Source: Candidatus Heimdallarchaeota archaeon (lineage in GTDB: Archaea > Asgardarchaeota > Heimdallarchaeia > JABLTI01). Taken from it: DNA of 32,000 nucleotides. Below the pieces are notes generated by a model that did not search any database, was not told the origin of the DNA, and worked only from the letters and a program-made list of their open reading frames with translations. Both the position numbers and the translations under genes were made by a program. Of this stretch, positions 2,512-26,556 are shown in pieces (position 1 is the stretch's first letter; each line of letters starts with the position of its first letter). The stretch spans positions 2,840 to 34,839 of the forward strand of contig JAUWKS010000033.1 of NCBI GenBank assembly GCA_030614005.1, written 5' to 3'.

Positions 2512-2871
2512 GTGATGAAGATGCCCGTGCCTAAAAAACTGAAGACCAAAGAAGAAGTCCGAAAATTTGTTGAAATGGTTGCAAATAAACAAGGTTGGTA
2601 TTTGCACCCCGATGAGAAATTTTTAGTTATGTTAATTGAAGGCTTACAAAGTAATTACAATGAACATGGCTATTTTGGTTGTCCTTGTAGGTTATTAGAA
2701 GGTGACAGAGAACACGATAAAGACCTTCTTTGCCCTTGTGACTATTGCAATCCTGATCAATTAGAATATGGTCATTGCTATTGTGGACTCTATTGTACTC
2801 ACGAATTCCATGCTTCTGGTAAGACACCAGACGGAATACCAGAAAGACGACCAGAAGAGAAATGGTTCTGA
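2512..2871 (+). CDS. Ferredoxin-thioredoxin reductase catalytic subunit (FtrC/FDR-like)
   Basis: CPCR-x13-CPC-x12-CYCGLY cysteine pattern of the [4Fe-4S] plus disulfide site. The start may be ATG 2515 or 2521. Confidence 0.93.
   Translation: MMKMPVPKKLKTKEEVRKFVEMVANKQGWYLHPDEKFLVMLIEGLQSNYNEHGYFGCPCRLLEGDREHDKDLLCPCDYCNPDQLEYGHCYCGLYCTHEFHASGKTPDGIPERRPEEKWF
2779..2800 (+). repeat. 22-bp direct repeat, copy 1 (inside the FTR gene, CYCGLYC codons)
   Basis: TATTGTGGACTCTATTGTACTC is identical to 3620-3641. Confidence 0.9.
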
Positions 2872-2898
2872 TAGTCTTTCTAATTTTGATAAAGTGTA

Positions 2899-3546
2899 CT
2901 ATTTTTTCCTTTTAAAATGGATAACTAACATAATCAAAGCTGAAATTATTAATCCAAAGATAACCTTGCTTGTAATAGAAATATTGATTGTTGATACGTA
3001 GGAGAAATCAAAAGATGGTACACCATTTCGTATCCTCATCAATGCTCTTGTTGAATTTAGCATCGTTTCACCATAGCCATAGAGGTATAACCAAAGAATA
3101 TACGTCCCATCTGGGATTATTTCAATTCCCCCTTCATCAAGAAACAAATAACTTACAGATGTTATCTTTCTTTCTCCTGCTGGAATTGTTTCATTCATTT
3201 CTGCCGGGAATATACTACTACAATAGCATTTAAAACGAAAGGTTAGTTTTTCATTCTTTAGATTTATCGAGGCATTCGTTCCAAACATTTGTTCAGGATA
3301 TGTTGGAAATACTAGCTCAATAGGACCATTTGGATTGTTCACCGTTGCATTGGTTGTTATCTCAATAGCTGATTTATTCTCATCACTATAGTCCTCTATC
3401 CATTTCCATTTTATATCAGTAATATCTGTTTTGATATTTTGAAATTCACCACTAGTTTCTAGGATCGGATTAACAATACTATTAAAACAACATACTATAC
3501 CTACAATTACTAGCGATAAAACACTCTTCCTTATCATTCTCCTCAT
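2899..3546 (-). CDS. Hypothetical surface protein (N-terminal signal/TM, beta-rich body, C-terminal TM + KRKK)
   Basis: Hydrophobic N-terminus after basic residues; C-terminus VIFGLIISALIMLVIHFKRKK. Confidence 0.75.
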   Translation of the reverse strand: MRRMIRKSVLSLVIVGIVCCFNSIVNPILETSGEFQNIKTDITDIKWKWIEDYSDENKSAIEITTNATVNNPNGPIELVFPTYPEQMFGTNASINLKNEKLTFRFKCYCSSIFPAEMNETIPAGERKITSVSYLFLDEGGIEIIPDGTYILWLYLYGYGETMLNSTRALMRIRNGVPSFDFSYVSTINISITSKVIFGLIISALIMLVIHFKRKK

Positions 3547-3619
3547 TTAATAATAACTCAAACAGCTTTAATTAGTTTTCTTCTTTTCGAATTACTACTA
3601 ATCCTTCAGGGTCAATTGA

Positions 3620-3641
3620 TATTGTGGACTCTATTGTACTC
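3620..3641 (+). repeat. 22-bp direct repeat, copy 2 (intergenic relic of the FTR 3' region)
   Basis: Identical to 2779-2800, with similar flanks (GGTCA.TTG upstream, GAATTCCA downstream). Confidence 0.9.
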
Positions 3642-3742
3642 TAGAATTCCAAGATCATTGGTATCAATACTATCAACCAAAAACAAGATAATTAATGATG
3701 AATGATATAATGTATGTATTTATGAAGTGTTGAGGGTTTTAA

Positions 3743-4303
3743 ATGAAAAGAAAAATGGATTTACTGAAAACGATAATGCTACTGTCATTATTCTTTCTTT
3801 CTTTCTCCTTTTTTGTACAAGAGATAAAAGCAAAAGAATTTGATAATTGTCAGCTTTATAGAATCAATCAATATATCGAAGAAGAATTATCTATTGATTG
3901 GGATTGTTCTCGATCACTGGCAACACCTTATGTATACGCCAGTGGAATAGTTTTTGTGAATATGACACTTCTACCTACTTCTAATTCAAATGTTTCACTT
4001 ATATTTGTAGATGATGAGAGAGTTACCTGGTCACCGATACCATTGGATAACTTTACTCTAAATCAAGGTGAAAGTTATTCACAAACCTTTGCCTTGGTAA
4101 GCAGTGGAGTAGGTTATTCAGGTAGCATCCATTTTTCCTGTGCGGTGTTACAAGAAAATGCTACTGCAACCATACTCTGGGGTTACAATGTTCTGATTAA
4201 AGGCACTTCTCCGGTTTCTTTGGGTTTCATACCTGTTTTAATTGGATTAATACTTCTATCTTCGAGTTTCTATTTACTAAAACGAAAATCTAAGAAGAAT
4301 TAA
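3743..4303 (+). CDS. Hypothetical surface protein (signal peptide, beta-sandwich-like body, C-terminal TM + basic tail)
   Basis: MKRK + hydrophobic leader ending IKA; C-terminus SPVSLGFIPVLIGLILLSSSFYLLKRKSKKN; GAGG SD-like sequence upstream. Confidence 0.75.
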   Translation: MKRKMDLLKTIMLLSLFFLSFSFFVQEIKAKEFDNCQLYRINQYIEEELSIDWDCSRSLATPYVYASGIVFVNMTLLPTSNSNVSLIFVDDERVTWSPIPLDNFTLNQGESYSQTFALVSSGVGYSGSIHFSCAVLQENATATILWGYNVLIKGTSPVSLGFIPVLIGLILLSSSFYLLKRKSKKN

Positions 4304-4556
4304 TCCCTTTATTTTTTTTAAAATCTTTAAACTTCATTCCTTTTCCTCATAAAATCTCTATAAGTTACTTATTTCTCAGTGTATTTCTTTTCCGCTGATT
4401 TGCCCTTTTATATTCCTCATCTGCACTTTTTAGTAATTATTGACTTACTAAACCAAAACTTAAGGAGGTCTATCCGATAACTCCAAAAAAAGATTGGAAG
4501 CAAAAACAAATTTAGTCATTTATAAAGAATAGTTAAGAACAAGGACCTATATTTCC

Positions 4557-5498
4557 TTATTCTTGATTTACAATTAATCCTTTGGAGTCAATGGTAATTG
4601 TTGATAATGCTTTTCCCTTCGTTTGATTTAGTGCTGTTGTTATTTTATCTCGAGTATCTTCTGTAACCAATGCAAGCATATTATCACCTACCCCTGCTCC
4701 TGAGAGTTTAGCACCAAGTGCATCATTATCAATTGCAGCCGAAATCAATTCTTCAAGTATAGATGAACTAACATTTAACGCTCTTAGCAAATCTTGATTT
4801 TCGTTCATCAAATTACCCAAAGTTCTTTGATCATTCTCTAATATTGCTTCTTCTGCATTAATTACAATTTCCCTTATTCTATCGAATATTTTCTTGGCTT
4901 CAATAGGATCTTTGTATTCATAATCACGAACTTGCTGAACAATAGGTCCACTTGGAGCTTTAAACCCAGTATTGCCCACAACAAATTTTACATTCTCATA
5001 AGGCAATGACTTCGGCTTCCTGCCCATTTGAAATTTTATAATACCGCCATAAAGTGAGGTAGCAATATCTAAACCACTACCGTACCCTTTGAAATCTTGG
5101 TTGAAATCAATGCAAATCTTCAGGAATTCAAGTCTGGATGGCATGATATCGAAGTAGGTAAAAAGTGCTCCATATAGTGCAACAATAAGCGCTGCCGAGC
5201 TTCCGAAACCAGATTGAATATCAGACTCAATAACGATATCAAGTGGTTTTTCTGAAAGACTGTATTTTCTAAAAAAAGTAGCAATAAGACTTGAAACCAT
5301 ATCCAATTTCATCGTTGGATATTCTTCTTGATAAACATTGAACTCTTTACTAGTGAGTAAAATTTTATGCACTTTGCATTTTGAGAGAGTAACTGTTAAA
5401 CGCTTGTTTACAGCAAATACAATTGCCGGTTTTCCTCGGCTACTAGCATGTTCTCCAAAAAGAATTAATTTTCCTGGTGCTGAGCTAATTATTTTCAT
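4557..5498 (-). CDS. GHMP kinase of the mevalonate pathway (mevalonate kinase or phosphomevalonate kinase)
   Basis: SAPGKLILFGEHA, SGFGSSAA (GHMP ATP loop), GSGLDIA...YGG, GAKLSGAG. Co-oriented with an MVD-family gene. Confidence 0.85.
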   Translation of the reverse strand: MKIISSAPGKLILFGEHASSRGKPAIVFAVNKRLTVTLSKCKVHKILLTSKEFNVYQEEYPTMKLDMVSSLIATFFRKYSLSEKPLDIVIESDIQSGFGSSAALIVALYGALFTYFDIMPSRLEFLKICIDFNQDFKGYGSGLDIATSLYGGIIKFQMGRKPKSLPYENVKFVVGNTGFKAPSGPIVQQVRDYEYKDPIEAKKIFDRIREIVINAEEAILENDQRTLGNLMNENQDLLRALNVSSSILEELISAAIDNDALGAKLSGAGVGDNMLALVTEDTRDKITTALNQTKGKALSTITIDSKGLIVNQE

Positions 5499-5528
5499 CT
5501 AATCATCCTTCGTTTGTTCGAGTATTAT

Positions 5529-6539
5529 TTAAAATAAATGTTCATTTACAACTTTAACCCCTGGTCCTGGTTTACTCGAGATTATTTTCTCTGGGAGAAT
5601 TTTTTCCTCAAGCTGTTTTACTATTTCATGCTCAAATTTTGGTATTGTTAAAATGTGTAAATTTGCTCCAGTATCTATTGTATAGTAAGCATCTATTTTT
5701 TCTTCGCGAAGATTTTCAACGAAATGCATCACTTTTACAGTGTCAGGTGTCCAGAAAATTTGCGGAGGATTTGAAGTGATTGCTACAGAATGCATTGAAA
5801 GGCAATCCATTTCAGCAACTGACCCTAATGAATTGAAATCTCTCTCTTTTATAGCCAATCTGATTTTAGCAAGATTTGTATCCAAAGTATCTAAACGAGA
5901 TTTAAAGAAAGGACTTGTCTTTATTGATAATTTCATAGCATCTCGAGTGCTCATTTTTCTTTCAGGTGTTTTCAATACAACAACGATATCTCGTATATCA
6001 AACCAATTTTCATCTGCTAATTGGATAGCGTAGGATTCATTTTGTTCGTTATTGGCAATCCATTCAACATAACCACCATAAAAGGATCTACAAGAGGACC
6101 CCGAACCTCTTCTAGAAATCATTGATAATTCTTTTTTGTCTAGCTTCAAACCAGCTGCATTTGTTGCAGCGGATGTTAGTGCTGCAAAACCAGAAGCAGA
6201 AGAAGCCAATCCGGCAGCAGTTGGAAAATTGTTTTCAGAATAAACCTTGGCTTTAACATTTGTTTGAGAGATTTCACGTATAATTGCAAGATGGTCTACA
6301 ACTCTCTTCAAAGGTTTACCAGTTTGTTCAGTGCCATTCAAAATGAAATTATCTTTAGTTAATTCTTCTGAAAATTCAACTGTTGTAGTAGTTGTAAGTG
6401 CTTCTGTTGTGAATGAAATACTGTTGTTCATTGGTATAATCAGTTCTTCATCTCGTTTTCCCCAGTATTTGATTAGTGCAGTATTGGAATGGGCTATGGC
6501 TGTGGTTTTCGTTGTGATCACGCTCTTTAGTATAATCAA
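5529..6539 (-). CDS. mvaD: Diphosphomevalonate decarboxylase family protein
   Basis: AHSNTALIKYWGK, NNSIS, NNFPTAAGLASSASGFAAL, RRGSGSSCRS, TIDTGANLH. Confidence 0.9.
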   Translation of the reverse strand: MIILKSVITTKTTAIAHSNTALIKYWGKRDEELIIPMNNSISFTTEALTTTTTVEFSEELTKDNFILNGTEQTGKPLKRVVDHLAIIREISQTNVKAKVYSENNFPTAAGLASSASGFAALTSAATNAAGLKLDKKELSMISRRGSGSSCRSFYGGYVEWIANNEQNESYAIQLADENWFDIRDIVVVLKTPERKMSTRDAMKLSIKTSPFFKSRLDTLDTNLAKIRLAIKERDFNSLGSVAEMDCLSMHSVAITSNPPQIFWTPDTVKVMHFVENLREEKIDAYYTIDTGANLHILTIPKFEHEIVKQLEEKILPEKIISSKPGPGVKVVNEHLF

Positions 6540-6664
6540 TACGAATTACTAGTAAATAAAGTCTATTCAATTACTTTCTATTTTACCTATTTCTTATGTA
6601 AACACTTAATTAATCTATCAAACCACAATACTTCTTAGTTATTGTAAAAAATGGGGGATTTCAA

Positions 6665-7948
6665 TTGGAAGAAAAAATTAGCTCAGATTATGTACCACAT
6701 AATATCAAAAAAGATTTAAATTTTTTTAAATTAAGCATAGTTATTGGAATAATTGTCTTAAGCATTTATACAATACGTAAATTCATAAATATCCTATCGA
6801 TATTTATAATAGAAGGATATAGAATTTTACCTAGTTTTATTTTTTACTTTATACAATCTGCTATAATAATAACAATGATTCTTATTACTTTAAGCAGTCG
6901 AAAAGTTGCGAATATTATACCTGAAAGATCACAAGAAAAAATGAAAAATTTCAGCTTTATTTATTTCTGTATGGTAATTTTACAACTGTTATATTTAATC
7001 TTTGAAATCTTATCGTTATCTCAACTTCTACTTGGTGTTATTGTGTTCTTCATATTCTTGATATTTGACATTCTCTTTCTAATAGGCTATGGTGCTTCAC
7101 TCTACATTTTAGGACAGATGTTTGAGTTAGAAAAGGAATTTTTCGAGAATAAAACGAGAAAGCTATACTCATTTTATGGTATAATTGCTGTTTATGGAAT
7201 AATTATGATATTAATTGTTTTTAAATTAATCTTACCATCATATAGTATTAACTTAAGAGACTTCATCATAGGTGTAATGGGCATTATTATGTTTGGAGAG
7301 ATTTATACAATCATAAATAAAATTACATCAGAAATGTTTGATTCAAATAGAGTTGCAAAATTTAATGCTGAAAATTTGGTGCAAAATGAACAAATTTCGA
7401 AATCTGATACCAGCCATCCTAATGATAAATTATCAAATAAAGATAAGAAAATTACCACCTTACTTTGTTTGTTTTTTGGAGAATTAGGGGTGCATAGATT
7501 CTATGTTGAAAAACCCCTCTCAGGATTATTATATCTCTGCACAGGAGGAGTTTTTTATTTTGGTAAAGTATATGATTTCATAAGGATCCTTACAGGAAAA
7601 TTCACTGATGGTGATGGTAAGTTAATAACAGACAGCTCAACAACAGCACAAGTTACTCAGCAACCTTCTATACAACATCAATTAGCTACCTCTGAACCAA
7701 ATATTCAAAATATAAAGCAAGAAATGGATACAGAAATAGAAGCTGTAATAGAAGCTAAACTAGAGGATAAAATTAACCTTATGACTTCAGGTGAAGTAAT
7801 TGATCTAAATGATATTGCTAAACAATATAGTTGTAGTACAGAACAAGTGAAGTCAATTTTAAGGAAACTTCTCTCCAAAAGAAGAATTTGTGGTTCCTTA
7901 AACCTCGTCAAAGATATTTTTACAACAAAAGAAATTCAAATAAAATGA
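6665..7948 (+). CDS. Multi-pass membrane protein with a TM2 domain and a C-terminal PCI-like winged helix
   Basis: About 6 N-terminal TM helices. TM2 signature LCLFFGELGVHRFY...GLLYLCTGG..FGKVYDFIRIL.GKFTDGDG. C-terminal IDLNDIAKQYSCSTEQVKSILRKLLSKRRICGSLN. TTG start. Confidence 0.75.
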   Translation: MEEKISSDYVPHNIKKDLNFFKLSIVIGIIVLSIYTIRKFINILSIFIIEGYRILPSFIFYFIQSAIIITMILITLSSRKVANIIPERSQEKMKNFSFIYFCMVILQLLYLIFEILSLSQLLLGVIVFFIFLIFDILFLIGYGASLYILGQMFELEKEFFENKTRKLYSFYGIIAVYGIIMILIVFKLILPSYSINLRDFIIGVMGIIMFGEIYTIINKITSEMFDSNRVAKFNAENLVQNEQISKSDTSHPNDKLSNKDKKITTLLCLFFGELGVHRFYVEKPLSGLLYLCTGGVFYFGKVYDFIRILTGKFTDGDGKLITDSSTTAQVTQQPSIQHQLATSEPNIQNIKQEMDTEIEAVIEAKLEDKINLMTSGEVIDLNDIAKQYSCSTEQVKSILRKLLSKRRICGSLNLVKDIFTTKEIQIK

Positions 7949-8093: not shown

Positions 8094-8834
8094 ATGAAGA
8101 GCTACTCTTTTATTATGTCTGAAAAGAATTTTGTAAAATTATGTGGAGTAAGCTCTATTATCAGTGCATTTGCATATATTGGCACGGTTATTTTTTCTAG
8201 TGTAGCAGGAGTAGTAAATCCTGAAAACCTCACAGGAATGGCTGCTTTTTTGCAAAACTGGTATGATGCAAGAGTGCTGATGTCCGCTTATGGATGGTTC
8301 GGTATTTTAGGGTCACTCTTTACTTTACCTCTCATAGTAGGAATGTATCAAGTACTAAGAAAACAAGCACCTTGGCAATGGGCACCTATTGCAATTATCT
8401 TTCATGGGGTACTATTGCTAACTATTGCATATACTATACCTCTAGTGATTTCCTTTAATTTAGCTCCAAGATTTGTTACTGAAACTCAACCAGAACTATT
8501 ATCTTCAATAATGGTTACAACAGAAGTATTACGAACTATAGAAGATGTTTGTGTAAAAGTTGGAACAATTTTAACCCTACTAACAGGAATAAGCATTATG
8601 GCAATCATCGATTGGAAAGAATCGAGATTCCCAAGAGGAATAAATATTCTAGCAATTGTAACTGGTATAATCAGTTTATCTTTCCTTGGAACTTTTACCA
8701 CAACTGGAATAGTTTACACTATCTTCAATATAACGTCCATTGTTAGTTTAGGATTGATGCTATTGTGGATGATAGCAATAGGAATAGTAATGATTTTACC
8801 AATGAAAGCTGTTGAAAGTGAAGAAGAGAAGTGA
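8094..8834 (+). CDS. DUF4386-like multi-pass membrane protein (paralog 1)
   Basis: About 6 TM segments. Aligns by eye with 10672-11430 (NLAPRFV vs ELAPSFV; AIVTGI vs AISSGI). Confidence 0.6.
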   Translation: MKSYSFIMSEKNFVKLCGVSSIISAFAYIGTVIFSSVAGVVNPENLTGMAAFLQNWYDARVLMSAYGWFGILGSLFTLPLIVGMYQVLRKQAPWQWAPIAIIFHGVLLLTIAYTIPLVISFNLAPRFVTETQPELLSSIMVTTEVLRTIEDVCVKVGTILTLLTGISIMAIIDWKESRFPRGINILAIVTGIISLSFLGTFTTTGIVYTIFNITSIVSLGLMLLWMIAIGIVMILPMKAVESEEEK

Positions 8835-8957
8835 TTCTCTCTTTCATTTCTACTTTTTTTCAAGAATTTTGAATGAAAAATTGTTTCTTCAAACTAATCA
8901 ATAAAAAACGAATTTCTATCCAAATAAATAAGTAAACAAAATAGAAAAAAGAAAATT

Positions 8958-10454
8958 TTATTTGAATGAAATTTCTGAACAAGAATGAGTAGAGATTTTC
9001 TTTCGTTTCCGATTCAAAAGAATAGGAATTATAATTGAAATAGTAAATGACAGTATCAAAAATGGTAATCTAGGCATCGAAATAATCCTTGTCTCATTTA
9101 TTGTATGATATTGTATCTCAGGAGCTACTACTACTAGAGAAGCGGTTTTTATTCCAAAGTGATCAATTTTCCAAAGAAATACTTGAAAACCATTTTGTCC
9201 ATCATTCACATACCATGAGATAATCATTTCAGATTCCATATCAAGAATAATCTTAAGATCAAAAATAGCTGGACCCCAAAAACAATATTCATTCTTTAAA
9301 AATCGAATTAGTAATTTTGTTTCTATGTGAGATTGATTTTGAGTTGGACTAAAGAGTGAATAATAAATTTCAACGGGATCGTAAATTGCAATACTCGCAG
9401 ATAATGAAGCTATGTGAGTAGAATTCAAACAAACAGTTGTATCTGTGAAAAAATGATCATTCAAAGTTCCTGAATCACCCAAACTTCCATCAGAATTTAA
9501 CAGAAATGATTCATGATAGTAAAACTGTGTAGTATCATTATGCACTCGCCAACAGAAATAGAATGTATTTTCAACCTTATGCAAACGAGCATAGTGGATG
9601 AGCATATCTGTAGTATCAAATAGTAAATTTCTACTCTGTTCTATTATACTTGTTGCGCCTATAGTATATTTAATGCTAGAAATACTCTCAGAGTCATCAT
9701 CTACACAGAGAACTAGAGCATCTCCTTCACTATCTAATAATAAATCTTGAACTTGACCCAGTTCTGTAGGGATTTCAGTTGAAGCTTTGATATTTCCGTC
9801 ATTATTCATCAGATAGTAAAAATTATCCTTTATTAACAGATGAATTGAATCCGTTTCATCTAGTAATAATCCTCTAATTGAATCGTGAGGGCAATAATTT
9901 GAATTCCCAGCTTGTTCAAACGTATGTACAATTTTTGGTGTTATTATTGTTTCTAAGTTTGTATTTAATTTTTGATAAAAGATATTTATTCTTTGAGGTA
10001 TACTAAATTCAATTAAACACCAGAATAAATGCAAGTTATTTACAGAATCGATAAGTAATTGATGTAATCCAAGATCATATTCATTATTTAATGCTAAAGA
10101 ATCTGTATCAAGCACTATTTGAGAACCCTTTACAAGACTTAGATTGGAAGAAAATTCTGAAATTAATAAGTTCTTTTCTCCTTCTCGCCACATAATAAAT
10201 ATGTGGTTATTACTTGAACAAACTGTTCTTGGATTATGAACCTCGGCAGTATCTCCTGAAATAAGATAATCGGATCCATTCTCAGCAGTAATTTGATTGG
10301 ATATATCCAACTCTCCACTATCATTTCTTATAGTGTCAGGTGTATTAACAATTATTTTCATTGGGTGAGATTTAGTTTGAACTGAATCAAATGAAACTAA
10401 AATTAGGATTATTACCAGAATAAAAAGAGTAATTATTTTAGATATCCTTTTCAT
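8958..10454 (-). CDS. Hypothetical surface protein (signal peptide, beta-rich and possibly propeller-like, C-terminal TM + NRKRKK)
   Basis: MKRISK + hydrophobic leader; repeated beta-hairpin motifs (NNHIFIMWRE, NNLHLFWC, FYFCWR, MIISWY); C-terminal anchor. Confidence 0.7.
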   Translation of the reverse strand: MKRISKIITLFILVIILILVSFDSVQTKSHPMKIIVNTPDTIRNDSGELDISNQITAENGSDYLISGDTAEVHNPRTVCSSNNHIFIMWREGEKNLLISEFSSNLSLVKGSQIVLDTDSLALNNEYDLGLHQLLIDSVNNLHLFWCLIEFSIPQRINIFYQKLNTNLETIITPKIVHTFEQAGNSNYCPHDSIRGLLLDETDSIHLLIKDNFYYLMNNDGNIKASTEIPTELGQVQDLLLDSEGDALVLCVDDDSESISSIKYTIGATSIIEQSRNLLFDTTDMLIHYARLHKVENTFYFCWRVHNDTTQFYYHESFLLNSDGSLGDSGTLNDHFFTDTTVCLNSTHIASLSASIAIYDPVEIYYSLFSPTQNQSHIETKLLIRFLKNEYCFWGPAIFDLKIILDMESEMIISWYVNDGQNGFQVFLWKIDHFGIKTASLVVVAPEIQYHTINETRIISMPRLPFLILSFTISIIIPILLNRKRKKISTHSCSEISFK

Positions 10455-10671
10455 TATAATAAGTGTCTCCCAAATATATTATGATCTTTTTATAATTAAA
10501 TTATTCTATATTTTTAAATTTTTAAATAATTTTTGAGAGTTTTTAACGATGAAAAAAGAGCAACTGAAGAAGAAAAGCAATTTTTTGTTATTTATTCTCT
10601 TTTTTCATCAAATTAGCTAAAGTATGATTCCTTTTATATTGATGGCGCACTAATGATATTTGTAGTAGCAA

Positions 10672-19634: not shown

Positions 19635-21113
19635 ATGGCTCCTGAAAAGAAGATAGTTGAGGCAAAAACATCATTCAAAGATGTTATCAATTCTATGAAC
19701 TATAATATCAAATTAGTTTTTGCTTTCTATATTACGAGTTCTTTAGGTAGAGGTATTTGGATGGGCAACGTTCTTAGCACATACATCTATCTTTTTTCTG
19801 AAAGTGGTGGAGGATTTTTAGGATTAAGTTCTAATGTTATTCTAGGGTTAACTTCAGCCGCTTCAGGAATTACTATGACTCTATTCGTTTTCCCCGCAGG
19901 ATTTATGGCTGATAAGTTCCGACGAGATATTATCCTCAAATCTGCGACAGGCATTGGTATCGCAGCAATGGGATTTCTTATCTTTGGAAATTCAATAATT
20001 TTCATTTTTATTTCATTGTTATTGTGGGGATTGTTTAATGCTTTAGTCCGTCCTTCACTTGAAGCATTGTTTGCTGATTCTGTTGAATCTGGATACCGTT
20101 CAAAGATTTATTCTTGGGGACATTTAGTACGGCAGATAGCTATGGCGCTTGGACCTTTCATTAATATTGGACTATTCTTCATTTTTGGCGATAAATGGGA
20201 TTTAAATATTCTCCGGAGTGTCATGATCGTAGGCTTAGCTATCACATTAATTTCAATTGTTTTGATGTTTTTCTTCAAAGATGACAAAACACTTGGTGAT
20301 GAAAGTGAAGAAATAGCTGAAGATGTTGTTACAATTGCACCAAGCGTTCAACAAAAGGAAGATATCAATGAAAATGGAAGACACTTCAAGAATCGGCTTG
20401 CAAATCTAGATTCGGAGCGGAAAAAGAAACTCATACCGATAATTCTAGTCTCTAGCAATGTAATAATTGGTGTTGGTGCTGGGATGACAGTAAAATATTT
20501 CCCAATATTCTTTATGAATGAATATAACCTATCTCCAGTTTTGTTGCAAGTAGTAATGGGTGCTACTGCATTAGTTACTGGTTTATTTGGAGTTGCTGCA
20601 CAAAAAGCATCGCTGAAATTAGGCCGAGTCCAAACGATATTTTACGTTCAGTTCATTGCTACTGCTTGTTTACTTTTTATTGCTGTGTATCCACCAATTG
20701 CAGTCCTTATTCCTCTGTTTATTCTTAGAGGGGCATTTATGAATGCAGGTCAACCATTAAGTCGATCAATACTGATGGATATGATCCCTAAAACAAACCG
20801 GGGAAAATGGAATTCAGTTGAAGCAATTGCATGGGGTCTCTTTTGGAATGTATCAGCTGTTGCAGGTGGTTTCCTAATTGGCAACTCAAACAGGTACAAT
20901 CTCTGTTTCGTCATCACTACCTTTGTCTATATTTTTGGCATGGTTCCAATTATTATATTAATGCCTTTAGTAGGTAAAGAGAAAGAAGCTAAAATAAAAG
21001 AAAAACTTCTTGAAGATTCAATCTACAATGAGGATGGATTTGATGAAGTTTTTGGAGAATCAGAACATGTTAAAAAAGATGATAGTGAAAATGCTAAAAT
21101 CGAAGTACTATAA
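19635..21113 (+). CDS. Major facilitator superfamily transporter
   Basis: About 12 TM helices in two halves with a charged central loop; motif A-like GFMADKFRR; SRSILMDMIPKTNRGKWNS. Confidence 0.92.
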   Translation: MAPEKKIVEAKTSFKDVINSMNYNIKLVFAFYITSSLGRGIWMGNVLSTYIYLFSESGGGFLGLSSNVILGLTSAASGITMTLFVFPAGFMADKFRRDIILKSATGIGIAAMGFLIFGNSIIFIFISLLLWGLFNALVRPSLEALFADSVESGYRSKIYSWGHLVRQIAMALGPFINIGLFFIFGDKWDLNILRSVMIVGLAITLISIVLMFFFKDDKTLGDESEEIAEDVVTIAPSVQQKEDINENGRHFKNRLANLDSERKKKLIPIILVSSNVIIGVGAGMTVKYFPIFFMNEYNLSPVLLQVVMGATALVTGLFGVAAQKASLKLGRVQTIFYVQFIATACLLFIAVYPPIAVLIPLFILRGAFMNAGQPLSRSILMDMIPKTNRGKWNSVEAIAWGLFWNVSAVAGGFLIGNSNRYNLCFVITTFVYIFGMVPIIILMPLVGKEKEAKIKEKLLEDSIYNEDGFDEVFGESEHVKKDDSENAKIEVL

Positions 21114-21533
21114 ATTACTATTCTTTCAAAATTAGCCATTAGCTATTCGCAAACTTACACAAAAAGTACTAATATAGCTATTTTGCACCTATCGCAAGGC
21201 GAGAAAGATTTTCATCTTCCAATTATTCCTAATATGAAGATGAGAACCCTCAACTCAATTACTCAAGTTTGAACTTTGTTAAAAATTGTAGCTATTAGTT
21301 AATTTATTAACATATACAATTTATTCCCTCAGTTATACTCATTGTAAATTAATCTAATTGTGTGATAGTGTTTCACTATTGTAAATGAAGGAAATTGTTG
21401 TTATAATAGATTTACTTACTATAATTATGAGCGACAAAAAATTCACAAGACTTATATATATCTAGAAAAATACTATCACTCAATATTACTTTGAAAGGAA
21501 GTATTAGAGAGAGATTAGATGTAAGAAATAGAT

Positions 21534-21560: not shown

Positions 21561-21573
21561 AGGAAATGATAAG

Positions 21574-22746
21574 ATGAAAAAAATATCAACAATTAATACT
21601 TTGCTAGTATTTTTGGTTATAATTGGAACTGTTTTTGCAAATGTGAATGCAATAGTTTCAATAATGCCAATAAATATAGTGGAAAGAGATGTGGAACGAG
21701 TAGACAATAAAACTACTATTAGTGATATAAACGAGTTTGATGTAAAGACATTGACAGAAATTGCTGACTATATTAGTATTCAAGCAGCTCAAAATAATTT
21801 TGAGATTTCTGCTATGGTATATTCCTCAGGATTATTATTTGAATCTGACAACTCCCTAATAATAATAGGTCATGGACATTTTAGTTCTAATGATCAATAT
21901 TTTATTGCTGATTATTCAACAAATAGAATTAGCAAAATGGCTGAAAATAAAGAAGTGGTTGCTTTACTTGCTTGCTATTCCAATAATATTGGATTAGAAA
22001 ATGACTTACAATTAACCTATGCAGATACAATCGATCTAATATCTGCGATACAAGATTTATTTAATCTACTAAGTTGGACAGAAAGCTCCCAACTTAATCC
22101 TATAAAGAATATACGACTTTTTGATTTGGATCCTGGACCCGGTGGATATGTTGAAGCAGTTTACTTGATGAATGGTGTAAGATATGCTCATTCCAGAAAC
22201 AAGTTTTGGAATCTATATAGTGGACCTGCACGAGCAAATTTAGCAGCATACATGCAAAATAATAAATATACACTTGTAGAATTAACCTTTTCTGGGATTT
22301 TTGCTGTTGAACAAGGAAGAAATACTGGTATATATGAATTAGAATACCATAAAGTTACTTATGATACTTGGCTTACAATTGAAGGAGATACTAAAACGTA
22401 TCTTAAAATTACTAATGTTAAACACAACGGAGTAAGAAAAAGAACAATGAATCGATTAATAAAACTTGATAAAGTAAATGCATTACTTGAAGCAAATTTC
22501 ACTGGTGCTGGTCTTATAGGTTCTCTAGATCATCTCGGAGATATTTTCTTAGCTATTGGCATTGCATTACTTACTTCGAGTACATTATTGATAATTGCTG
22601 CTAAGACTGCAACTTCTCTAGCTGCAGCAGTAACTGCTGCTTTGATTAAATTGGCTGCAGTAGCATTATGGTTTGCTGTTGCTTGCTTTGCTATTGCATT
22701 AATGCTTGCAATATCTTGTGTAATACTTCAACTCTGTTGGATTTAG
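21574..22746 (+). CDS. Secreted protein: caspase/gingipain-like (HG...AC) domain + central domain + Ala-rich hydrophobic C-terminus; candidate toxin/bacteriocin precursor
   Basis: Signal peptide; SLIIIGHG (His100) and VVALLACYS (Cys134); DPGPGG linker; an ~80-aa hydrophobic C-terminus with no basic tail. The function is inference. Confidence 0.6.
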   Translation: MKKISTINTLLVFLVIIGTVFANVNAIVSIMPINIVERDVERVDNKTTISDINEFDVKTLTEIADYISIQAAQNNFEISAMVYSSGLLFESDNSLIIIGHGHFSSNDQYFIADYSTNRISKMAENKEVVALLACYSNNIGLENDLQLTYADTIDLISAIQDLFNLLSWTESSQLNPIKNIRLFDLDPGPGGYVEAVYLMNGVRYAHSRNKFWNLYSGPARANLAAYMQNNKYTLVELTFSGIFAVEQGRNTGIYELEYHKVTYDTWLTIEGDTKTYLKITNVKHNGVRKRTMNRLIKLDKVNALLEANFTGAGLIGSLDHLGDIFLAIGIALLTSSTLLIIAAKTATSLAAAVTAALIKLAAVALWFAVACFAIALMLAISCVILQLCWI

Positions 22747-22771
22747 AAAATAAAAAGGAGGAAATGTCAAT

Positions 22772-23212
22772 TTGAGTACTATAGCTAATGAACAAACAAA
22801 GTTACAAAAGAATGCATTTGTTGTTTACATGGTTTTAGCAATAAGTCAACTAATGCTTCTTATACTTTCAGCGATTTTTCGAGCTATAACCAAGAAGCAA
22901 TATCATGATGAACTTACAACACTAAATCATCAGTATTATTATAGCTTTACATTCTTCATGAATCTTGCAACATATCTATTTTTCTTTGCAATGGTGATTT
23001 ATTTCAGCTTTTTAAGTTCTAAAATTGAAAGTATAAAAAATGTTGATATAGATAAACTAGATTTCGGAAATGCATTAGAAGAGATATTTAGACCTACAAG
23101 TCCAAAATTCAAACGAAGAAAGATTCTCTTAGTAATCGTTCTAGTACTTGCATTTCTAGTAATGATATGTTCTCAAATCTATATACAAATTGGTATTGTG
23201 TTTATGTTGTAG
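22772..23212 (+). CDS. Small three-TM membrane protein; candidate immunity protein
   Basis: AGGAGG at 22756-22761 and a TTG start 25 bp after the upstream stop; three hydrophobic segments. Confidence 0.6.
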   Translation: MSTIANEQTKLQKNAFVVYMVLAISQLMLLILSAIFRAITKKQYHDELTTLNHQYYYSFTFFMNLATYLFFFAMVIYFSFLSSKIESIKNVDIDKLDFGNALEEIFRPTSPKFKRRKILLVIVLVLAFLVMICSQIYIQIGIVFML

Positions 23213-23645
23213 CTTATTTTAGAAGGCTATTCGTCTAAATTTTTTTTCTTTTTTCTGGGAATTAACTGCTTATGTTAACAGATAAATAATTACGACAATT
23301 TTATAACAAAGTTCCAACTTACACAATTTGAGAAGAAAAAGACTTATCTGGACATTCTTTGTTCTAACACTTATTTCTCTAACTGCAACGCAAAGTTACT
23401 TGCTCATTATTCTATTTGTTGTGTTATGATATTCACATTTGGGGTAGTATTCAACCCAAATATCTTTTTTTTTCTTCTTTCAGCAATAATTTTTTTGTAT
23501 CTCCGTCTTTTTAGAACGAAAAAAATTGATGGAATAAGTATACTATGTAACGCTATTCCACCAAAAAACTATTCCTAAAATTGCAGGCATTTTTTCTTTA
23601 TTAACAATAAGATTGTAGTTTGTTAATTGTTGTATCTATTATTGT

Positions 23646-23789
23646 ATGATTTCAATCATCATATTAGTACCTTTAGTAGGTAAAGAAAAAGAAGAACTAC
23701 TTGAAGATTCATTCGACAGTGTGGATGGATTTGAAGATGTTTTTGGAGACTCAGAACCAATTAAAAAAGATTCTAGTGATGTTAGTTGA
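23646..23789 (+). pseudogene. Relic copy of the 3' end of the MFS gene
   Basis: Translates MISIIILVPLVGKEKEELLEDSFDSVDGFEDVFGDSEPIKKDSSDVS* versus MFS C-terminus MVPIIILMPLVGKEKEAKIKEKLLEDSIYNEDGFDEVFGESEHVKKDDSE. Exact 17-mer CCTTTAGTAGGTAAAGA at 20964 and 23670. Confidence 0.9.
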
Positions 23790-23852
23790 AAGCAAGGCAC
23801 CTAATCATGTTAAGCCTTTTGTAGATTTCTTAATCAATTGCTTTATGATTCC

Positions 23853-24326
23853 TTAACTGACAAAATCTTTTGTAACTGCATTAGCAAAATCTAATCGATC
23901 AAAATAAAGTCTCAAACTTTGAATCAGATAATTTTTGTAAATGAGAACTTCCGCTTGTTTAGACTCAACAAATGTTCCATCAAGTAATTTTGCTTTAACA
24001 ATAAATTCTTCAAAGAAAACATCACCATCTACTAAAATAATCACTGGTTTGAATTGGATTTCTGAAATATGACTGAAAAACCATTGCAACCATTTTCGCG
24101 CACCATCTTTACCGTGCAATTTTACATTTAATAATTCAATTTCACAATCCTCAGCAAAATAAGTGACAATTTTTTCAATATTCATCTTTTCTAGAGCAGT
24201 ATCTAATTCCATAGCAATTTTTTTTATCTTATCAGAATCTTGTTGAGAAATAACAATATCCTCCTTTATAATAAAATTACAGTATTCATTCTTCTTTTTA
24301 TTGTAAGGAATTTTTATATTTCTCAA
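23853..24326 (-). CDS. SnoaL-like/NTF2-superfamily protein
   Basis: IVTYFAEDCEI, GKDGARKW, DGDVFFEE, IQSLRLYFDRL. The start is uncertain and the stop may be premature (see findings). Confidence 0.8.
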   Translation of the reverse strand: MRNIKIPYNKKKNEYCNFIIKEDIVISQQDSDKIKKIAMELDTALEKMNIEKIVTYFAEDCEIELLNVKLHGKDGARKWLQWFFSHISEIQFKPVIILVDGDVFFEEFIVKAKLLDGTFVESKQAEVLIYKNYLIQSLRLYFDRLDFANAVTKDFVS

Positions 24327-24341
24327 AATACTTTATAATTT

Positions 24342-25532
24342 ATGCTTAATCATAGATTTTTAACTCAATATAAGGATCCTGAGAGCTTTGTGGAGGGTGC
24401 TGTTGAATTTATTCAAAAGCATATCAAAGATAAGAAAGTTTTTTGTGCTCTTTCAGGGGGAATAGATAGTTCAGCTGCTTATCTTCTTTTAAAGAAAGCG
24501 GGTGTAAATGTCTTACCAGTCTTCATAGATCATGGACTAATGCGAATTATCCGAGGTAAAGAGGAGCGAGTTTGGATCAAAGAAACATTTCCAGATGTAA
24601 AAGTGGTTGATATTCGTGATGAATTTCTCCCGCAAATTTACGGAGAAGGAGACGCAGAGAAAAAAAGGAAATTATTCAAAAAAGCTTATTCAGGTACTTT
24701 TGACAAAATAATTAGAGAAGAGAACTGTCAGCTATTGACTGATGGAACCATTTTACCCGATCTAGAGGAAAGTTTTGGTGTTGGAATGGATGAAATCAAA
24801 GAAAGCATGTCTTTTGATGATGAAACTGCTCTTCGTGAAGCTCAAAAAGGACTAGGCTTTGTGAAAAGTCAACACAATGTGGAAATACAATATGATGTTG
24901 AAGCCACTGTCCAACCTGTTGCTTCTTTGACAAAAAATCAAGTTAGAGAAGTGCTCCAGTATTTGGATATGCCTGACGATGTTGTCTTTAGGAAAGCATT
25001 CCCAGGTCCAGCCTTAGCTGCTCGCATTGTTGGTCCAGTCACTGAGGAGAAACTGACATTCCAAAAGAAAATACATGATATTGTTGAATCTGCTGTTGAT
25101 GACTTTTATATTGCAAAACATGGTAAATCTATGATTATCAATGAAAAAGGTGAACAAGAACCATTCCAAGTTTTTGCAGCCACTTTTGAAGATGCAACAA
25201 ATGCAGAAGTCACCGGGTTAAAAGATGGTAGAAGAACATACGATAAAGCCAAATGTGTTTCCGGTGATTGGAATTTTGATCAATTAGTGAAAGATGGTTT
25301 AGCCTTAACTGGTCACACTCGATTATTTTATCAATTAGGTGAAAAAGAAGATGGTAAATTTGATGCTGTTATTAGGTGTATAAATAGTATAGATGCTCGA
25401 ACAGCATATATCACCAATTTACCTTATGAATTGCTCCAAGAGTTAAGTAGTAAGTTGTTAGAAGTGCCAGATGTTCGACGAGTTTACTTTGACGTAACAA
25501 CAAAACCACCTAGCACAATTGAATATGTATAA
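24342..25532 (+). CDS. guaAB: GMP synthase, ATP pyrophosphatase subunit B (split archaeal type)
   Basis: ALSGGIDSS, IDHGLMR, KSQHNV, FPGPALAARIVG, SIDARTA, RRVYFDVTTKPPSTIEYV. No glutaminase domain. Confidence 0.92.
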   Translation: MLNHRFLTQYKDPESFVEGAVEFIQKHIKDKKVFCALSGGIDSSAAYLLLKKAGVNVLPVFIDHGLMRIIRGKEERVWIKETFPDVKVVDIRDEFLPQIYGEGDAEKKRKLFKKAYSGTFDKIIREENCQLLTDGTILPDLEESFGVGMDEIKESMSFDDETALREAQKGLGFVKSQHNVEIQYDVEATVQPVASLTKNQVREVLQYLDMPDDVVFRKAFPGPALAARIVGPVTEEKLTFQKKIHDIVESAVDDFYIAKHGKSMIINEKGEQEPFQVFAATFEDATNAEVTGLKDGRRTYDKAKCVSGDWNFDQLVKDGLALTGHTRLFYQLGEKEDGKFDAVIRCINSIDARTAYITNLPYELLQELSSKLLEVPDVRRVYFDVTTKPPSTIEYV

Positions 25533-25542
25533 ATAAAAAAGT

Positions 25543-25562
25543 CTAGGATTGAATAATCCTAG
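25543..25562. terminator. Perfect hairpin between convergent genes (possible bidirectional terminator)
   Basis: CTAGGATT-GAAT-AATCCTAG (8-bp stem, 4-nt loop), preceded by an A-run and followed by T-rich sequence. Confidence 0.55.
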
Positions 25563-25567
25563 CATCT

Positions 25568-26398
25568 TCATTTCTTTTTCTTCTTTGAATATAAAATACT
25601 TGCAAAAGTCATTGAAATTATCCCAACGATAATTGGAAATATCTGCACAGGTGTAGTAGCAGTGCAACCAATTCTTAATGCATTGTAATCGAAATCACTG
25701 TCTGCTTGTCTAATCTGCGAATAGATTATCATTGCAACAGCATTATCGTCTTTATAATAGAAGAAGATTTCAATATCATCATTGAGTGCTAAAGCAGGGT
25801 CTTTTCCAGGAGTGTCTCCAGAATCTAAAGGAAATTCGAGTTCGTATTCATCATAGTTTATTTTTGGATGAACTTTTCCTACACTGTCTTCAGTACCAGA
25901 AACGCTTACGTCATCCTCCCATATAAGACCAGCAACATCTTTTGTAACACCATCAATTGAATCGTTGTTGTGTGCATAAATGTATTTTATATCTTGTTCT
26001 TTGCCATAGCCCCAACCTTCATCGTATATTCGAACTAGTGGTTCAGCTGTATTTGTTTTCAATACGATTGCTAGCTGGTCATCTCCTTCGCCTTTATCAG
26101 TATCAGGAACGGTAACTGCAAAAATCAAGTTGTTTTCTTCAGTATACAAAGTCTTTACTACTATGATAATTGTATCAGCTTGGTTGTCCAAATTGTAGAG
26201 AGTGATATTATAGGTCAAAGCAGGTGCCCATTCTGTGGTACCAATATGTCCATCTATTACAGGTGGAGTAGAGTTATAGCAAGTTAATATAAGGTCTTTT
26301 TTTACAGGAGCTTTTATAACAGCTACTGGAATTAAACATAGGAATATTAAACTAAAAATTATCCCACTTATAGTTGATTTTCTTAAAAATGGTTTCAA
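25568..26398 (-). CDS. Surface protein with a CBM9/DOMON-like domain and a C-terminal TM + KKKKK
   Basis: Signal peptide; PPVIDG...EW and YELEFPL; TTPVQIFPIIVGIISMTFASILYSKKKKK; GGAGG SD and TTG start. Confidence 0.7.
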   Translation of the reverse strand: MKPFLRKSTISGIIFSLIFLCLIPVAVIKAPVKKDLILTCYNSTPPVIDGHIGTTEWAPALTYNITLYNLDNQADTIIIVVKTLYTEENNLIFAVTVPDTDKGEGDDQLAIVLKTNTAEPLVRIYDEGWGYGKEQDIKYIYAHNNDSIDGVTKDVAGLIWEDDVSVSGTEDSVGKVHPKINYDEYELEFPLDSGDTPGKDPALALNDDIEIFFYYKDDNAVAMIIYSQIRQADSDFDYNALRIGCTATTPVQIFPIIVGIISMTFASILYSKKKKK

Positions 26399-26556
26399 TA
26401 TACTTCCTCCAATGAAATGTATGTATGAATAAAAATACCTTTTTTTATATAAATATCTAATGGAGATAATTTAGAAGGTCATTATTGAGAGTTTACATTG
26501 TAAAATAAAGACTTTATAACAAGCAATAGTATTTAATTCATATATATAGGTAATGT

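What the first reader, a model, noticed from the sequence alone, without database searches (positions are those of the whole stretch)
2770..26435. Recurring gene-capture signature: cargo inserted at 3' ends of resident genes, leaving a duplicated tail
Seen: up to four times in 32 kb (FTR, MFS, guaAB, weakly DUF4386) the order is resident gene, then accessory secreted/surface gene(s), then a decayed copy of the resident 3' end. In three of the four the cargo is a single antisense gene. No integrase, transposase or terminal inverted repeats are present. Known: tyrosine integrases and homology-facilitated recombination both duplicate target ends, but classically at tRNAs or a few fixed sites. Inference: a general, possibly undescribed route by which this lineage shuffles cell-surface and competition genes into many protein-coding 3' ends without disrupting them.
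Basis: partly seen in the sequence, partly recalled or inferred. Interest (0 to 1): 0.7.

Follow-up and report, generated by a model that had tools for sequence, protein, structure and literature searches.

The report
Displaced gene-end scars beside inserted genes
In this Heimdall-group Asgard archaeon, small blocks of accessory genes (mostly surface proteins) sit between conserved genes and are often followed by a decayed copy of the neighbour's end; this is real and recurrent, but it looks like the known scar of sloppy recombination, not a new gene-capture machine.

Summary
Three of the four claimed cases hold:
- FTR: 42 nt, 90% identical.
- MFS: 166 nt, 76% identical.
- The DUF4386-like gene: about 75 nt, 0 of 2000 shuffles score as high.

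The guaA case fails. Its match is no better than chance (p about 0.04), and its "cargo" gene is syntenic in four relatives.

The bracketed genes in the three real cases are missing at the same sites in relatives. One is also missing in a contig from a 95-99% identical strain.

A genome-wide scan finds 13 tail copies downstream and 9 head copies upstream in non-coding DNA, against 2 and 0 for the opposite arrangements. The pattern is therefore recurrent but not specific to 3' ends. A genome from another family of the same class shows a similar density.

I found no recombinase, no fixed site and no shared breakpoint motif. At two loci the scar is a permuted fusion of the ends of both flanking genes, joined at microhomology. 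That is one illegitimate join stacking two versions of an island.

Best reading: homology-facilitated illegitimate recombination, or unequal crossover, as proposed for rhs/CDI/T6SS "C-terminal displacement". The mechanism is a known kind that I found no description of in Asgard archaea.

The scan earlier noted cassettes bounded by 23S-tail repeats elsewhere in this genome (e1-5394726). They may be related; I did not test this.

The parts
2512..2871 (+). Resident gene A1: ferredoxin-thioredoxin reductase catalytic subunit (FTR). Its segment 2770-2810 is the source of the relic.
   Evidence: PF02943, E 6e-22; repeat.
2899..3546 (-). Cargo 1 of the FTR-MVK island: antisense surface protein with a signal peptide and a C-terminal TM plus basic tail.
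   Evidence: No Pfam hit. Hydropathy classifier. No tblastn match in the loci fetched around FTR/MVK in G010, G009, G003, G008, G006 and G005.
3576..3628 (-). Relic of the mevalonate-kinase (MVK) 3' end, including the stop codon and 5 nt beyond it.
   Evidence: 53 nt, 74%, E 1e-6 against 4552-4604. Also found in the genome scan. It is closer to the G010 MVK tail than the resident tail is.
3610..3651 (+). Relic of FTR codons about 87-100. It overlaps the MVK relic by 19 nt (3610-3628), and this overlap resembles both parent sequences, so it is an imperfect-microhomology junction.
3743..4303 (+). Cargo 2 of the FTR-MVK island: surface protein with a signal peptide and a C-terminal TM plus basic tail.
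   Evidence: no tblastn match in the relatives' loci.
4313..4509 (+). Relic of the promoter and first ~13 codons of a small gene that is intact at C24:9793-10071 and starts near the end of contig C9. In the window copy the ATG has mutated to AAG. It is a leftover of an earlier, displaced cargo gene.
4557..5498 (-). Resident gene B1: GHMP kinase (mevalonate kinase-like). In G009, G003, G008 and G006 it converges directly on FTR, 53-60 nt apart.
   Evidence: Pfam; synteny.
6665..7948 (+). TM2-domain membrane protein inserted between the divergent genes mvaD and 8094. No scar was found. The flanking genes are adjacent in the relatives examined (G010, G003, G008, G006).
   Evidence: Contigs in X1, X4 and X6 diverge at 6548-6577.
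8094..8834 (+). Its tail plus terminator, 8794-8869, is duplicated.
8958..10454 (-). Cargo: antisense 498-aa surface protein. It is absent between the two paralogues in G009, G003 and G006. An X6 metagenome contig skips it, joining 8808 to 10610.
10541..10614 (+). Relic of the 8094-gene tail and terminator. It sits in the ancestral position, just upstream of the paralogue 10672-11430. Homology with G010 and the X6 joint both begin at about 10606-10610.
19635..21113 (+). Resident gene A3: MFS transporter. Its tail 20923-21088 is duplicated. The resident tail runs 6 codons beyond the stop position shared by the relic and G010.
   Evidence: PF07690.
21574..23212 (+). Cargo: a two-gene module, a 390-aa secreted protein plus a 146-aa 3-TM protein. 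It is absent between MFS and its neighbours in G010, G009 and G003. A 55%-identical copy of the module sits behind the 8094-like gene in G010.
21265..21328 (.). Left arm of a 65-nt, 80% inverted repeat. The right arm is 23257-23320. Together they bracket the MFS cargo.
   Evidence: not present at the G010 copy.
23630..23782 (+). Relic of the MFS 3' end: 47 open codons and a stop. It lies next to the convergent SnoaL gene, as the real MFS end does in G009 and G003. The 15-nt deletion is absent from the X2 strain.
23853..24326 (-). Ancestral neighbour of MFS (SnoaL-like).
   Evidence: PF12680; synteny in G009 and G003.
25568..26398 (-). It is syntenic in G010, G009, G003 and G007, so it is not an insertion of this lineage.
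   Evidence: tail match not significant.

Best explanation
The decayed gene-end copies are scars of illegitimate, microhomology-guided DNA joins. Each join added a second stretch of DNA to an island between two conserved genes while keeping both flanking genes whole. The most economical route is homology-facilitated illegitimate recombination. DNA from a related strain, carrying the same flanking gene plus different accessory genes, pairs with the resident gene at one end. Its other end is then joined non-homologously a little 'too early', inside the resident gene's end. The incoming gene end becomes the working one, and the old end is pushed beyond the new genes, where it decays. If the join falls in the far flanking gene, the ends of both genes are left fused back to back. 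Only events that keep both neighbours intact survive, so the copies always lie beyond the end they duplicate: tails downstream, heads upstream.

Shown here:
- the scars themselves;
- their position next to the ancestral neighbour;
- the empty sites in relatives and in one conspecific strain;
- the permuted two-gene junctions with microhomology;
- the lack of a recombinase, a fixed site or a shared motif.

Inferred:
- that the added DNA came from another strain and not from the same genome;
- the order of events.
For: 1. The scars are significant.

2. The genome scan of 3043 ORFs against their 6-kb flanks finds, in non-coding DNA, 13 tail copies downstream and 9 head copies upstream. The geometrically 'wrong' classes give 2 and 0.

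3. Relics sit in the ancestral position.
- The MFS relic abuts SnoaL, as the real MFS end does in G009 and G003.
- The 8094 relic ends where homology with G010 and the X6 joint both start.
- In four relatives FTR and MVK converge only 53-60 nt apart.

4. Permuted junctions.
- In the window, MVK-tail' and FTR' share a 19-nt imperfect microhomology.
- On contig C119, B-tail' (24829-25051) and A-tail' (25045-25187) lie side by side, both 87% identical to their resident genes, joined at a 4-nt AATA microhomology. They are flanked by two different cargo sets.
- G010 carries only the first cargo set, with no relics.
- A-tail' still overlaps the start codon of the next cargo gene (TAATG). The second version was therefore a working arrangement somewhere.

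5. In the MFS, MVK and C119-A cases the relic keeps the G010-like gene end, while the resident end differs.

6. The resident 8094 tail and its relic are only about 70% identical, yet a 95-99% identical strain lacks the insert.

7. No recombinase was found in the window or in the cargo of 12 other loci. The whole genome has a single PF00589 hit.

8. Breakpoints lie 35-240 nt from gene ends and share no motif.
Against: - No donor arrangement (the same flanks with only the second cargo) was found.
- The three-way comparisons rest on 40-200 nt. The mosaic test for MFS is only suggestive (p 0.06).
- Resident and relic are each other's closest relatives at C119. That fits an in-genome duplication equally well.
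- Synonymous-site identity to G010 is flat across the region, so no imported block is visible.
- A partner relic from the far flanking gene was found at only 2 of 22 loci.
- The FTR relic stops abruptly after 42 nt instead of running on to the FTR stop.
- DNA uptake and recombination biochemistry are unknown for this uncultured lineage.
Confidence: 0.5

Rival explanations
1. Purely in-genome events. Short tandem segmental duplications, or template switching during replication at microhomology, spanned the gap between two genes. Gain, loss or replacement of cargo in the two spacers followed. No foreign DNA is involved in making the scar.
For: - The junction geometry is identical to a tandem-duplication junction.
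- The window holds a plain tandem duplication of a surface-protein gene, 14992-15714 against 15759-16484, 77% identical.
- At C119, resident and relic are closer to each other than to G010.
- The short MVK'+FTR' block could be templated filler copied from nearby DNA.
Against: - It needs extra unexplained insertions to put different cargo in each spacer (FTR/MVK, C119).
- The relic, which should decay freely, keeps the G010-like end while the selected resident end differs, in three cases.
- Identity between the 8094 tail and its relic is about 70%, although the insert is polymorphic among 95-99% identical strains.
Confidence: 0.25
2. The islands are decayed integrative elements. A tyrosine or serine integrase inserted a circular element whose attachment site carried a copy of the target gene's end, as phage 21/e14 do in icd or elements do in tRNA genes. 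The integrase was later lost.
For: - This route restores the gene and leaves a displaced end, with the same outward pattern (own knowledge: Campbell-type integration into icd and tRNA genes).
- One island, on contig C9, holds a LAGLIDADG-HTH gene.
Against: - No integrase in the window or in 12 other islands, and only one PF00589 gene (probably the chromosome-resolving Xer type, my inference) in 3.6 Mb.
- Inserts are 0.6-5 kb and hold one to four ordinary accessory genes.
- Duplicated lengths vary from 35 to 240 nt with no shared core.
- The permuted two-gene junctions place the cargo in the spacers, not between the two relics. A circle integrating through a copy of that region cannot produce this.
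Confidence: 0.08
3. One reading: a dedicated, undescribed gene-capture system of this lineage that targets the 3' ends of many protein-coding genes to shuffle surface and competition genes.
For: - The pattern is recurrent and the cargo is enriched for surface proteins.
- The same sites hold different cargo in different genomes.
- Another scan note reports cassettes bounded by copies of the 23S rRNA tail in this genome (not tested here).
Against: - 5' ends are hit about as often as 3' ends.
- No motif, no fixed distance and no candidate enzyme.
- Several insertions in the window leave no scar at all: 6665-7948, and the 15021-17175 and 18223-19470 blocks, which are absent in G010.
- Density is similar in a genome of another family.
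- Cargo also includes toxin-antitoxin pairs and ordinary enzymes.
Confidence: 0.08

Closest known systems
Homology-facilitated illegitimate recombination (HFIR) in naturally transformable bacteria (de Vries & Wackernagel 2002, PMC122324; Prudhomme et al. 2002, PMC122325; both as cited in PMC5361080)
   Same: One homologous anchor plus one non-homologous join at short microhomology. No dedicated recombinase. It adds foreign genes next to a conserved gene.
   Different: HFIR was shown by experiment in bacteria, where it usually deletes some recipient DNA. Here it is inferred from scars in an uncultured Asgard archaeon. The surviving events duplicate the gene end instead of deleting it.
C-terminal displacement in rhs / CDI / T6SS effector loci, with strings of orphaned 3' ends (Jackson et al. 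2009, PMC2935791; Kirchberger et al. 2017, PMC5361080)
   Same: An intact gene is followed by new accessory gene(s) and then by the displaced old 3' end. The events are successive. HFIR is the proposed mechanism. The cargo is linked to cell-surface functions and competition.
   Different: Those loci are polymorphic toxins with immunity genes. Here the resident genes are ordinary ones (FTR, an MFS transporter, a GHMP kinase, a membrane protein). The displaced pieces are short (35-240 nt), and 5' heads are displaced as well.
Gene-restoring site-specific integration (phage 21/e14 in icd; elements in tRNA 3' ends; own knowledge, and Williams 2002, PMC100330, as cited in PMC8813620)
   Same: The gene stays intact and a copy of its end flanks the insert.
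   Different: It needs an integrase and a fixed core site. Neither was found.
Unit of evolution spanning the 3' part of one ORF, the spacer and the 5' part of the next in tandem paralogue clusters (Tsuru & Kobayashi 2008, PMC2568036; abstract only read)
   Same: Recombination breakpoints lie inside gene ends, so that the spacer with its flanking gene ends moves as a block.
   Different: That case concerns homologous exchange among tandem paralogues in Staphylococcus, not the insertion of unrelated cargo.

Membership tests
Homology-facilitated illegitimate recombination | A non-homologous join at short microhomology on one side | tested here: met
   The FTR/MVK junction has a 19-nt imperfect microhomology at 3610-3628. 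The C119 junction has a 4-nt AATA microhomology. Junctions at the other loci are too decayed to read.
Homology-facilitated illegitimate recombination | A homologous anchor on the other side, giving a resident gene that is part recipient and part donor | tested here: inconclusive
   The three-way comparison of MFS tails is suggestive only (Mann-Whitney p 0.06). Resident ends differ from G010 where the relics do not. No imported block shows up in synonymous-site identity.
Homology-facilitated illegitimate recombination | The inserted DNA comes from another genome | tested here: inconclusive
   The cargo is absent at these sites in relatives, and one cargo gene is absent in a conspecific strain. 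No donor arrangement was identified.
Homology-facilitated illegitimate recombination | DNA uptake and RecA/RadA-dependent strand invasion | not testable with these tools
   The lineage is uncultured.
Integrase-mediated gene-restoring integration | A tyrosine or serine recombinase in or beside the element | tested here: not met
   Pfam scans of all window ORFs and of the cargo at 12 other loci. The genome has a single PF00589 hit, on contig C58.
Integrase-mediated gene-restoring integration | A fixed attachment core shared by the two flanking repeats, and shared between events | tested here: not met
   Breakpoints lie 35-240 nt from gene ends, and only AT-rich k-mers are shared.
rhs/CDI/T6SS C-terminal displacement arrays | Displaced orphan 3' ends downstream of an intact gene, with new genes in between | tested here: met
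rhs/CDI/T6SS C-terminal displacement arrays | The resident gene is a polymorphic toxin with a variable toxic C-terminus and a cognate immunity gene | tested here: not met
   The resident genes are FTR, an MFS transporter, a GHMP kinase and a membrane protein.
Integron cassette array | An IntI integrase and attC-type cassette sites | tested here: not met
   There is no integrase, no repeated site among the window's intergenic regions, and no Rfam match in the window.
Transposon or MITE insertion | Terminal inverted repeats conserved between copies, and short target-site duplications | tested here: not met
   Only one locus has an inverted repeat, and the G010 copy of the module lacks it. The duplications (42-166 nt) are far longer than target-site duplications (own knowledge).

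The most novel reading that the evidence does not exclude
Heimdall-group Asgard archaea build and reshuffle their many small surface-protein and toxin-antitoxin islands mainly by a recombinase-independent (or unknown-enzyme) stacking process that uses the ends of flanking genes as anchors. On this reading the same process produces the cassette arrays bounded by 23S-rRNA-tail copies noted elsewhere in this genome. It would be a lineage-typical mode of genome growth, closer to eukaryote-style segmental duplication and end joining than to classical prokaryotic mobile elements.
Probability: 0.12. Interest if true: 0.65.

Novelty: new member of a known kind. Interest (0 to 1): 0.4.

Why it matters
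Asgard genomes are large and rich in accessory and duplicated genes, and how they gain genes bears on ideas about the archaeal ancestor of eukaryotes.

These scars give a concrete, countable record, about six per megabase. They suggest that many small islands grew by illegitimate recombination at gene ends without mobile-element enzymes. They also mark hot spots, such as FTR/MVK, the 8094 gene and the MFS gene, where different strains and species carry different cargo.

For annotation, the scars explain short open 'gene tails' and orphan promoters in spacers.

The mechanism itself is probably the one already known from bacteria. The value therefore lies in documenting it in this lineage and in quantifying it, not in a new principle.

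Tried and rejected
- guaA tail copy. No nucleotide alignment, and only a 16-26-nt AT-rich match (p about 0.04). The bracketed gene is syntenic. Rejected.
- tRNA and Rfam scans of the window: nothing found.
- Search for a SnoaL or guaA fragment left of the MFS relic: none at nucleotide or protein level.
- Search for relics in the G010 and G005 FTR-MVK gaps, and upstream of the G010 10672-like gene: none.
- Synonymous-site scan for an imported block against G010: flat, so uninformative.
- Partner relics at the other 20 loci: none detected.
- Shared breakpoint motif: none.
Two 21-nt probes had no match in the window, so the variant contigs at 6577 and 21089 run into DNA that the window does not hold.
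- Wu et al. 2022 (PMC8813620), searched for hypervariable regions, direct repeats and integrases: no description of such scars.

Full report
**Setting.** The window is C21:2840-34839 of a 3.62-Mb, 126-contig genome with 33.5% G+C. Earlier scan notes place the genome in the Heimdall group of Asgard archaea. The window holds conserved housekeeping genes:
- a pyruvate-ferredoxin oxidoreductase beta subunit and a glutaredoxin;
- the ferredoxin-thioredoxin reductase catalytic subunit (FTR) and a GHMP kinase (mevalonate kinase-like, MVK);
- diphosphomevalonate decarboxylase (mvaD) and an HtrA-like protease;
- an MFS transporter, a GMP synthase subunit (guaA) and a DUF362 protein.

Interleaved with these are many genes for proteins with a signal peptide, or with a C-terminal membrane anchor and a basic tail. 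These have no Pfam family. No ORF in the window matches an integrase or transposase. The window has no tRNA and no Rfam match.

**Check of the four claimed cases.**

*FTR.* 2770-2810 recurs at 3610-3651 (42 nt, 90%, E 3e-6 in a self-comparison of the whole window). The antisense surface-protein gene 2899-3546 lies between the two copies. The copied piece is internal, ending 61 nt before the FTR stop.

*MFS.* 20923-21088 recurs at 23630-23779 (166 nt, 76%, E 1e-27). It is in frame, with a 15-nt deletion, and still reads as an MFS C-terminus. Between the copies lies the two-gene module 21574-23212.

*'DUF4386'.* There are two full-length paralogues, 8094-8834 and 10672-11430. There is also a true relic of the first gene's tail plus its terminator: 8794-8869 against 10541-10614 (local score 26.5; 0 of 2000 shuffles reach it). 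My BLAST scan had missed it. The antisense gene 8958-10454 lies between.

*guaA.* I found no alignment, only an AT-rich match of 16-26 nt that 79 of 2000 shuffles equal. This case is rejected.

**Relatives.** I located the orthologues of MFS and FTR in genomes of the same genus and class and compared gene order.
- In G009, G003, G008 and G006, FTR and the kinase converge with only 53-60 nt between them.
- G000 has 1.7 kb there, holding two surface-protein genes.
- G010, the closest relative (about 75% identity at synonymous sites), has a RelE-type toxin-antitoxin pair there instead, and no relic.
- MFS is followed directly by the SnoaL gene in G009 and G003, and directly by guaA in G010. The 21574 module is absent at that site in all three.
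- A 55%-identical copy of that module, with its own upstream region, lies behind the 8094-like gene in G010.
- The two DUF4386-like paralogues are adjacent in G009, G003 and G006.
- The gene after guaA (25568-26398) is present at the same place in G010, G009, G003 and G007.
- Other insertions private to G000 leave no scar. These are the TM2-domain gene 6665-7948, the tandem surface-protein genes at 15021-16484, and the M28 peptidase gene 18223-19470.

**Strain-level evidence.** Contigs from four public metagenome runs were laid on 4401-24400.
- One contig in X6 (95-99% identical flanks) joins 8808 to 10610, with about 53 nt in between. It skips the 498-aa cargo gene, so this is an empty site in a conspecific population.
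- The right end of that joint coincides with the point where homology to G010 begins.
- A strain in X2 carries the MFS cargo and the relic. Its relic lacks the 15-nt deletion, so the relic is decaying by slippage.
- Single contigs in X4, X1 and X6 diverge from the window exactly at 21089 (the end of the MFS repeat) and at 6548-6577. They run into DNA not present in the window. This hints at further alleles, at low depth.

**Genome-wide test.** I called 3043 ORFs of at least 90 aa (86% coding) and compared each with its 6-kb flanks. Counts below are for direct partial copies lying in non-coding DNA.

| Genome | Tail copy downstream | Head copy upstream | Head copy downstream | Tail copy upstream |
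|---|---|---|---|---|
| G000 (3.62 Mb) | 13 | 9 | 2 | 0 |
| G016 (800 kb) | 4 | 0 | 1 | 0 |

- With a cut-off of E 1e-3 per ORF, about three chance hits are expected over all classes together.
- The scan is conservative: it missed both the FTR relic (classed as internal) and the 8094 relic (too weak).
- The pattern is therefore real and recurrent, but it is symmetric for 5' and 3' ends.
- The asymmetry against the 'wrong' classes is what any event must give if it keeps the gene intact while leaving a partial copy.
- G016 is a complete genome of another family in the same class. Its density is about 5 per Mb against 6 per Mb here, so the phenomenon is not private to this genome.
- I could not run a comparator outside the Asgard group.

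**Cargo.** The 41 ORFs bracketed at the 22 loci are enriched about twofold for an N-terminal hydrophobic segment. The figures are 15/41 against 534/3043 (Fisher p 0.003, crude classifier). They also include:
- PIN/SocA and MNT/HepT toxin-antitoxin pairs;
- an arginine deiminase;
- an FMN reductase;
- a kinase;
- an S9 peptidase.

None is a recombinase, and one is a LAGLIDADG-HTH protein. The genome has a single PF00589 gene. Breakpoints lie 35-240 nt from the gene ends and share no motif beyond AT-rich words.

**Anatomy of the junctions.** Two loci keep enough signal to read.

*In the window.* The block 3576-3651 is a fusion. First comes a copy of the last 48 nt of the kinase gene plus 5 nt beyond its stop (74%, E 1e-6). 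Then comes the FTR piece. The two overlap in 19 nt (3610-3628) that resemble both parents. The order along the DNA is:
1. FTR
2. cargo 1
3. kinase-tail'
4. FTR'
5. cargo 2
6. kinase

*On contig C119.* The same order is seen with longer, 87% identical copies:
1. gene A
2. surface gene plus nucleotidyltransferase
3. B-tail' with 58 nt of its downstream spacer
4. A-tail'
5. arginine deiminase plus LVIVD surface protein
6. gene B

The join falls at a 4-nt microhomology. G010 has A, the same first cargo and B once, without relics. A-tail' runs collinear with the G010 gene to its stop, and that stop overlaps the start codon of the deiminase gene.

This permuted order cannot come from two independent insertions at the two 3' ends. 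Nor can it come from a circle integrating through a copy of the A-B interval, because that would put the cargo between the two relics. It is the order produced by one non-homologous join between two versions of the same interval: version 1 up to a point in B, then version 2 from a point in A.

**Which end is old.** For the MFS, kinase and C119-A cases, the relic keeps the G010-like end: the same stop position and the same last codons. The resident end differs, by a 6-codon extension in MFS, several substitutions in the kinase, and a 1-nt indel in A. The MFS and 8094 relics also sit directly beside the ancestral neighbour. This fits relics being the original ends, with the working ends arriving along with the cargo.

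The regions are short, however. The positional mosaic test for MFS gives only p 0.06. Fast evolution of unconstrained C-terminal tails could mimic the pattern. The 8094 case adds one more argument: resident tail and relic are only about 70% identical, although the insert is polymorphic among near-identical strains. Long-lived alleles exchanged by recombination could also explain that.

**Interpretation.** The most economical account is homology-facilitated illegitimate recombination, or the equivalent unequal illegitimate crossover between two island alleles. It needs one homologous pairing in a conserved flanking gene and one microhomology join inside a gene end. Selection then keeps only the products in which both neighbours stay whole.

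Joins that fall in the spacer would leave no scar. This fits the several scar-free insertions in the window. Successive events overwrite older cargo. The 197-nt piece at 4313-4509 is the promoter and first ~13 codons of a small gene that is intact on contigs C24 and C9. It is a leftover of this kind.

The process is described for transformable bacteria. It has also been proposed for the strings of orphaned 3' ends at rhs, CDI and T6SS effector loci (PMC5361080 and the references it cites). I found no description of it for Asgard archaea. The paper on Heimdallarchaeum mobile elements does not mention such scars.

The main rival, in-genome tandem duplication or template switching followed by cargo turnover, shares the illegitimate join. 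It differs only in the source of the DNA, and I cannot exclude it. Decayed integrase elements and a dedicated capture system are poorly supported.

**Verdict.**
- It is not 3'-specific and probably not an undescribed route.
- It is a new instance, in an interesting lineage, of a known kind of recombination scar.

Noticed in passing
window 4313-4509; G000 C24:9645-9840 and C9:169487-169681: A 197-nt repeat, about 80% identical in three copies. In C24 and C9 it is the upstream region plus the start of a small gene (92 aa in C24). In the window the ATG has become AAG and homology stops after about 13 codons. It looks like an orphan promoter and head left over from displaced cargo.
   Followed up: partly
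window 14992-15714 and 15759-16484: A tandem duplication (727 nt, 77%) of a surface-protein gene. The second ORF (15755-16267) is shorter, although DNA similarity runs on to 16484. The whole block 15021-17175 is absent in G010. A 33%-identical homologue lies between SnoaL and guaA in G003.
   Followed up: partly
window 11498-12187: A multi-TM gene that is only 35% identical to its G010 counterpart, while its neighbours are 74-82% identical. In the X2 strain the same 655 nt fall below 90% identity while the flanks stay at about 98-99%. It looks like a hypervariable replacement allele.
   Followed up: partly
window 21101-21184 and 27998-28082: An 87-nt direct repeat (80%). One copy is the DNA just after the MFS stop. 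The other covers the start and upstream region of the minus-strand P-loop gene 27461-28060. Unexplained.
   Followed up: no
window 21265-21328 / 23257-23320: A 65-nt, 80% inverted repeat brackets the two-gene MFS cargo. It is absent from the G010 copy of the module. It may be a by-product of the joining event.
   Followed up: partly
L031 (G010:C4) 8238-8680: In G010 the FTR-kinase gap holds an antitoxin plus a RelE-type toxin pair, where G000 has two surface-protein genes and four other relatives have only 53-60 nt. One hot spot carries three different states.
   Followed up: partly
L036 (G000:C119:16000-34000), 4561-13936: The best-preserved example of the scar. The tails of two convergent genes are fused back to back between two different cargo sets. 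The resident gene A has a 1-nt indel that changes its last codons, compared with both the relic and G010.
   Followed up: yes
window 21089 and 6548-6577 (metagenome contigs): Single low-depth contigs in X4, X1 and X6 match the window up to exactly these points and then continue into unrelated sequence. This suggests further alleles at the MFS end and upstream of mvaD.
   Followed up: partly
G016:C1, at 297375-299255 and 304528-304687 of my 800-kb extract (add 100000 for G016:C1 coordinates): In the comparator genome, a 160-nt copy of a gene tail that is 100% identical lies 5 kb downstream in non-coding DNA. It may be a very recent event of the same kind.
   Followed up: no
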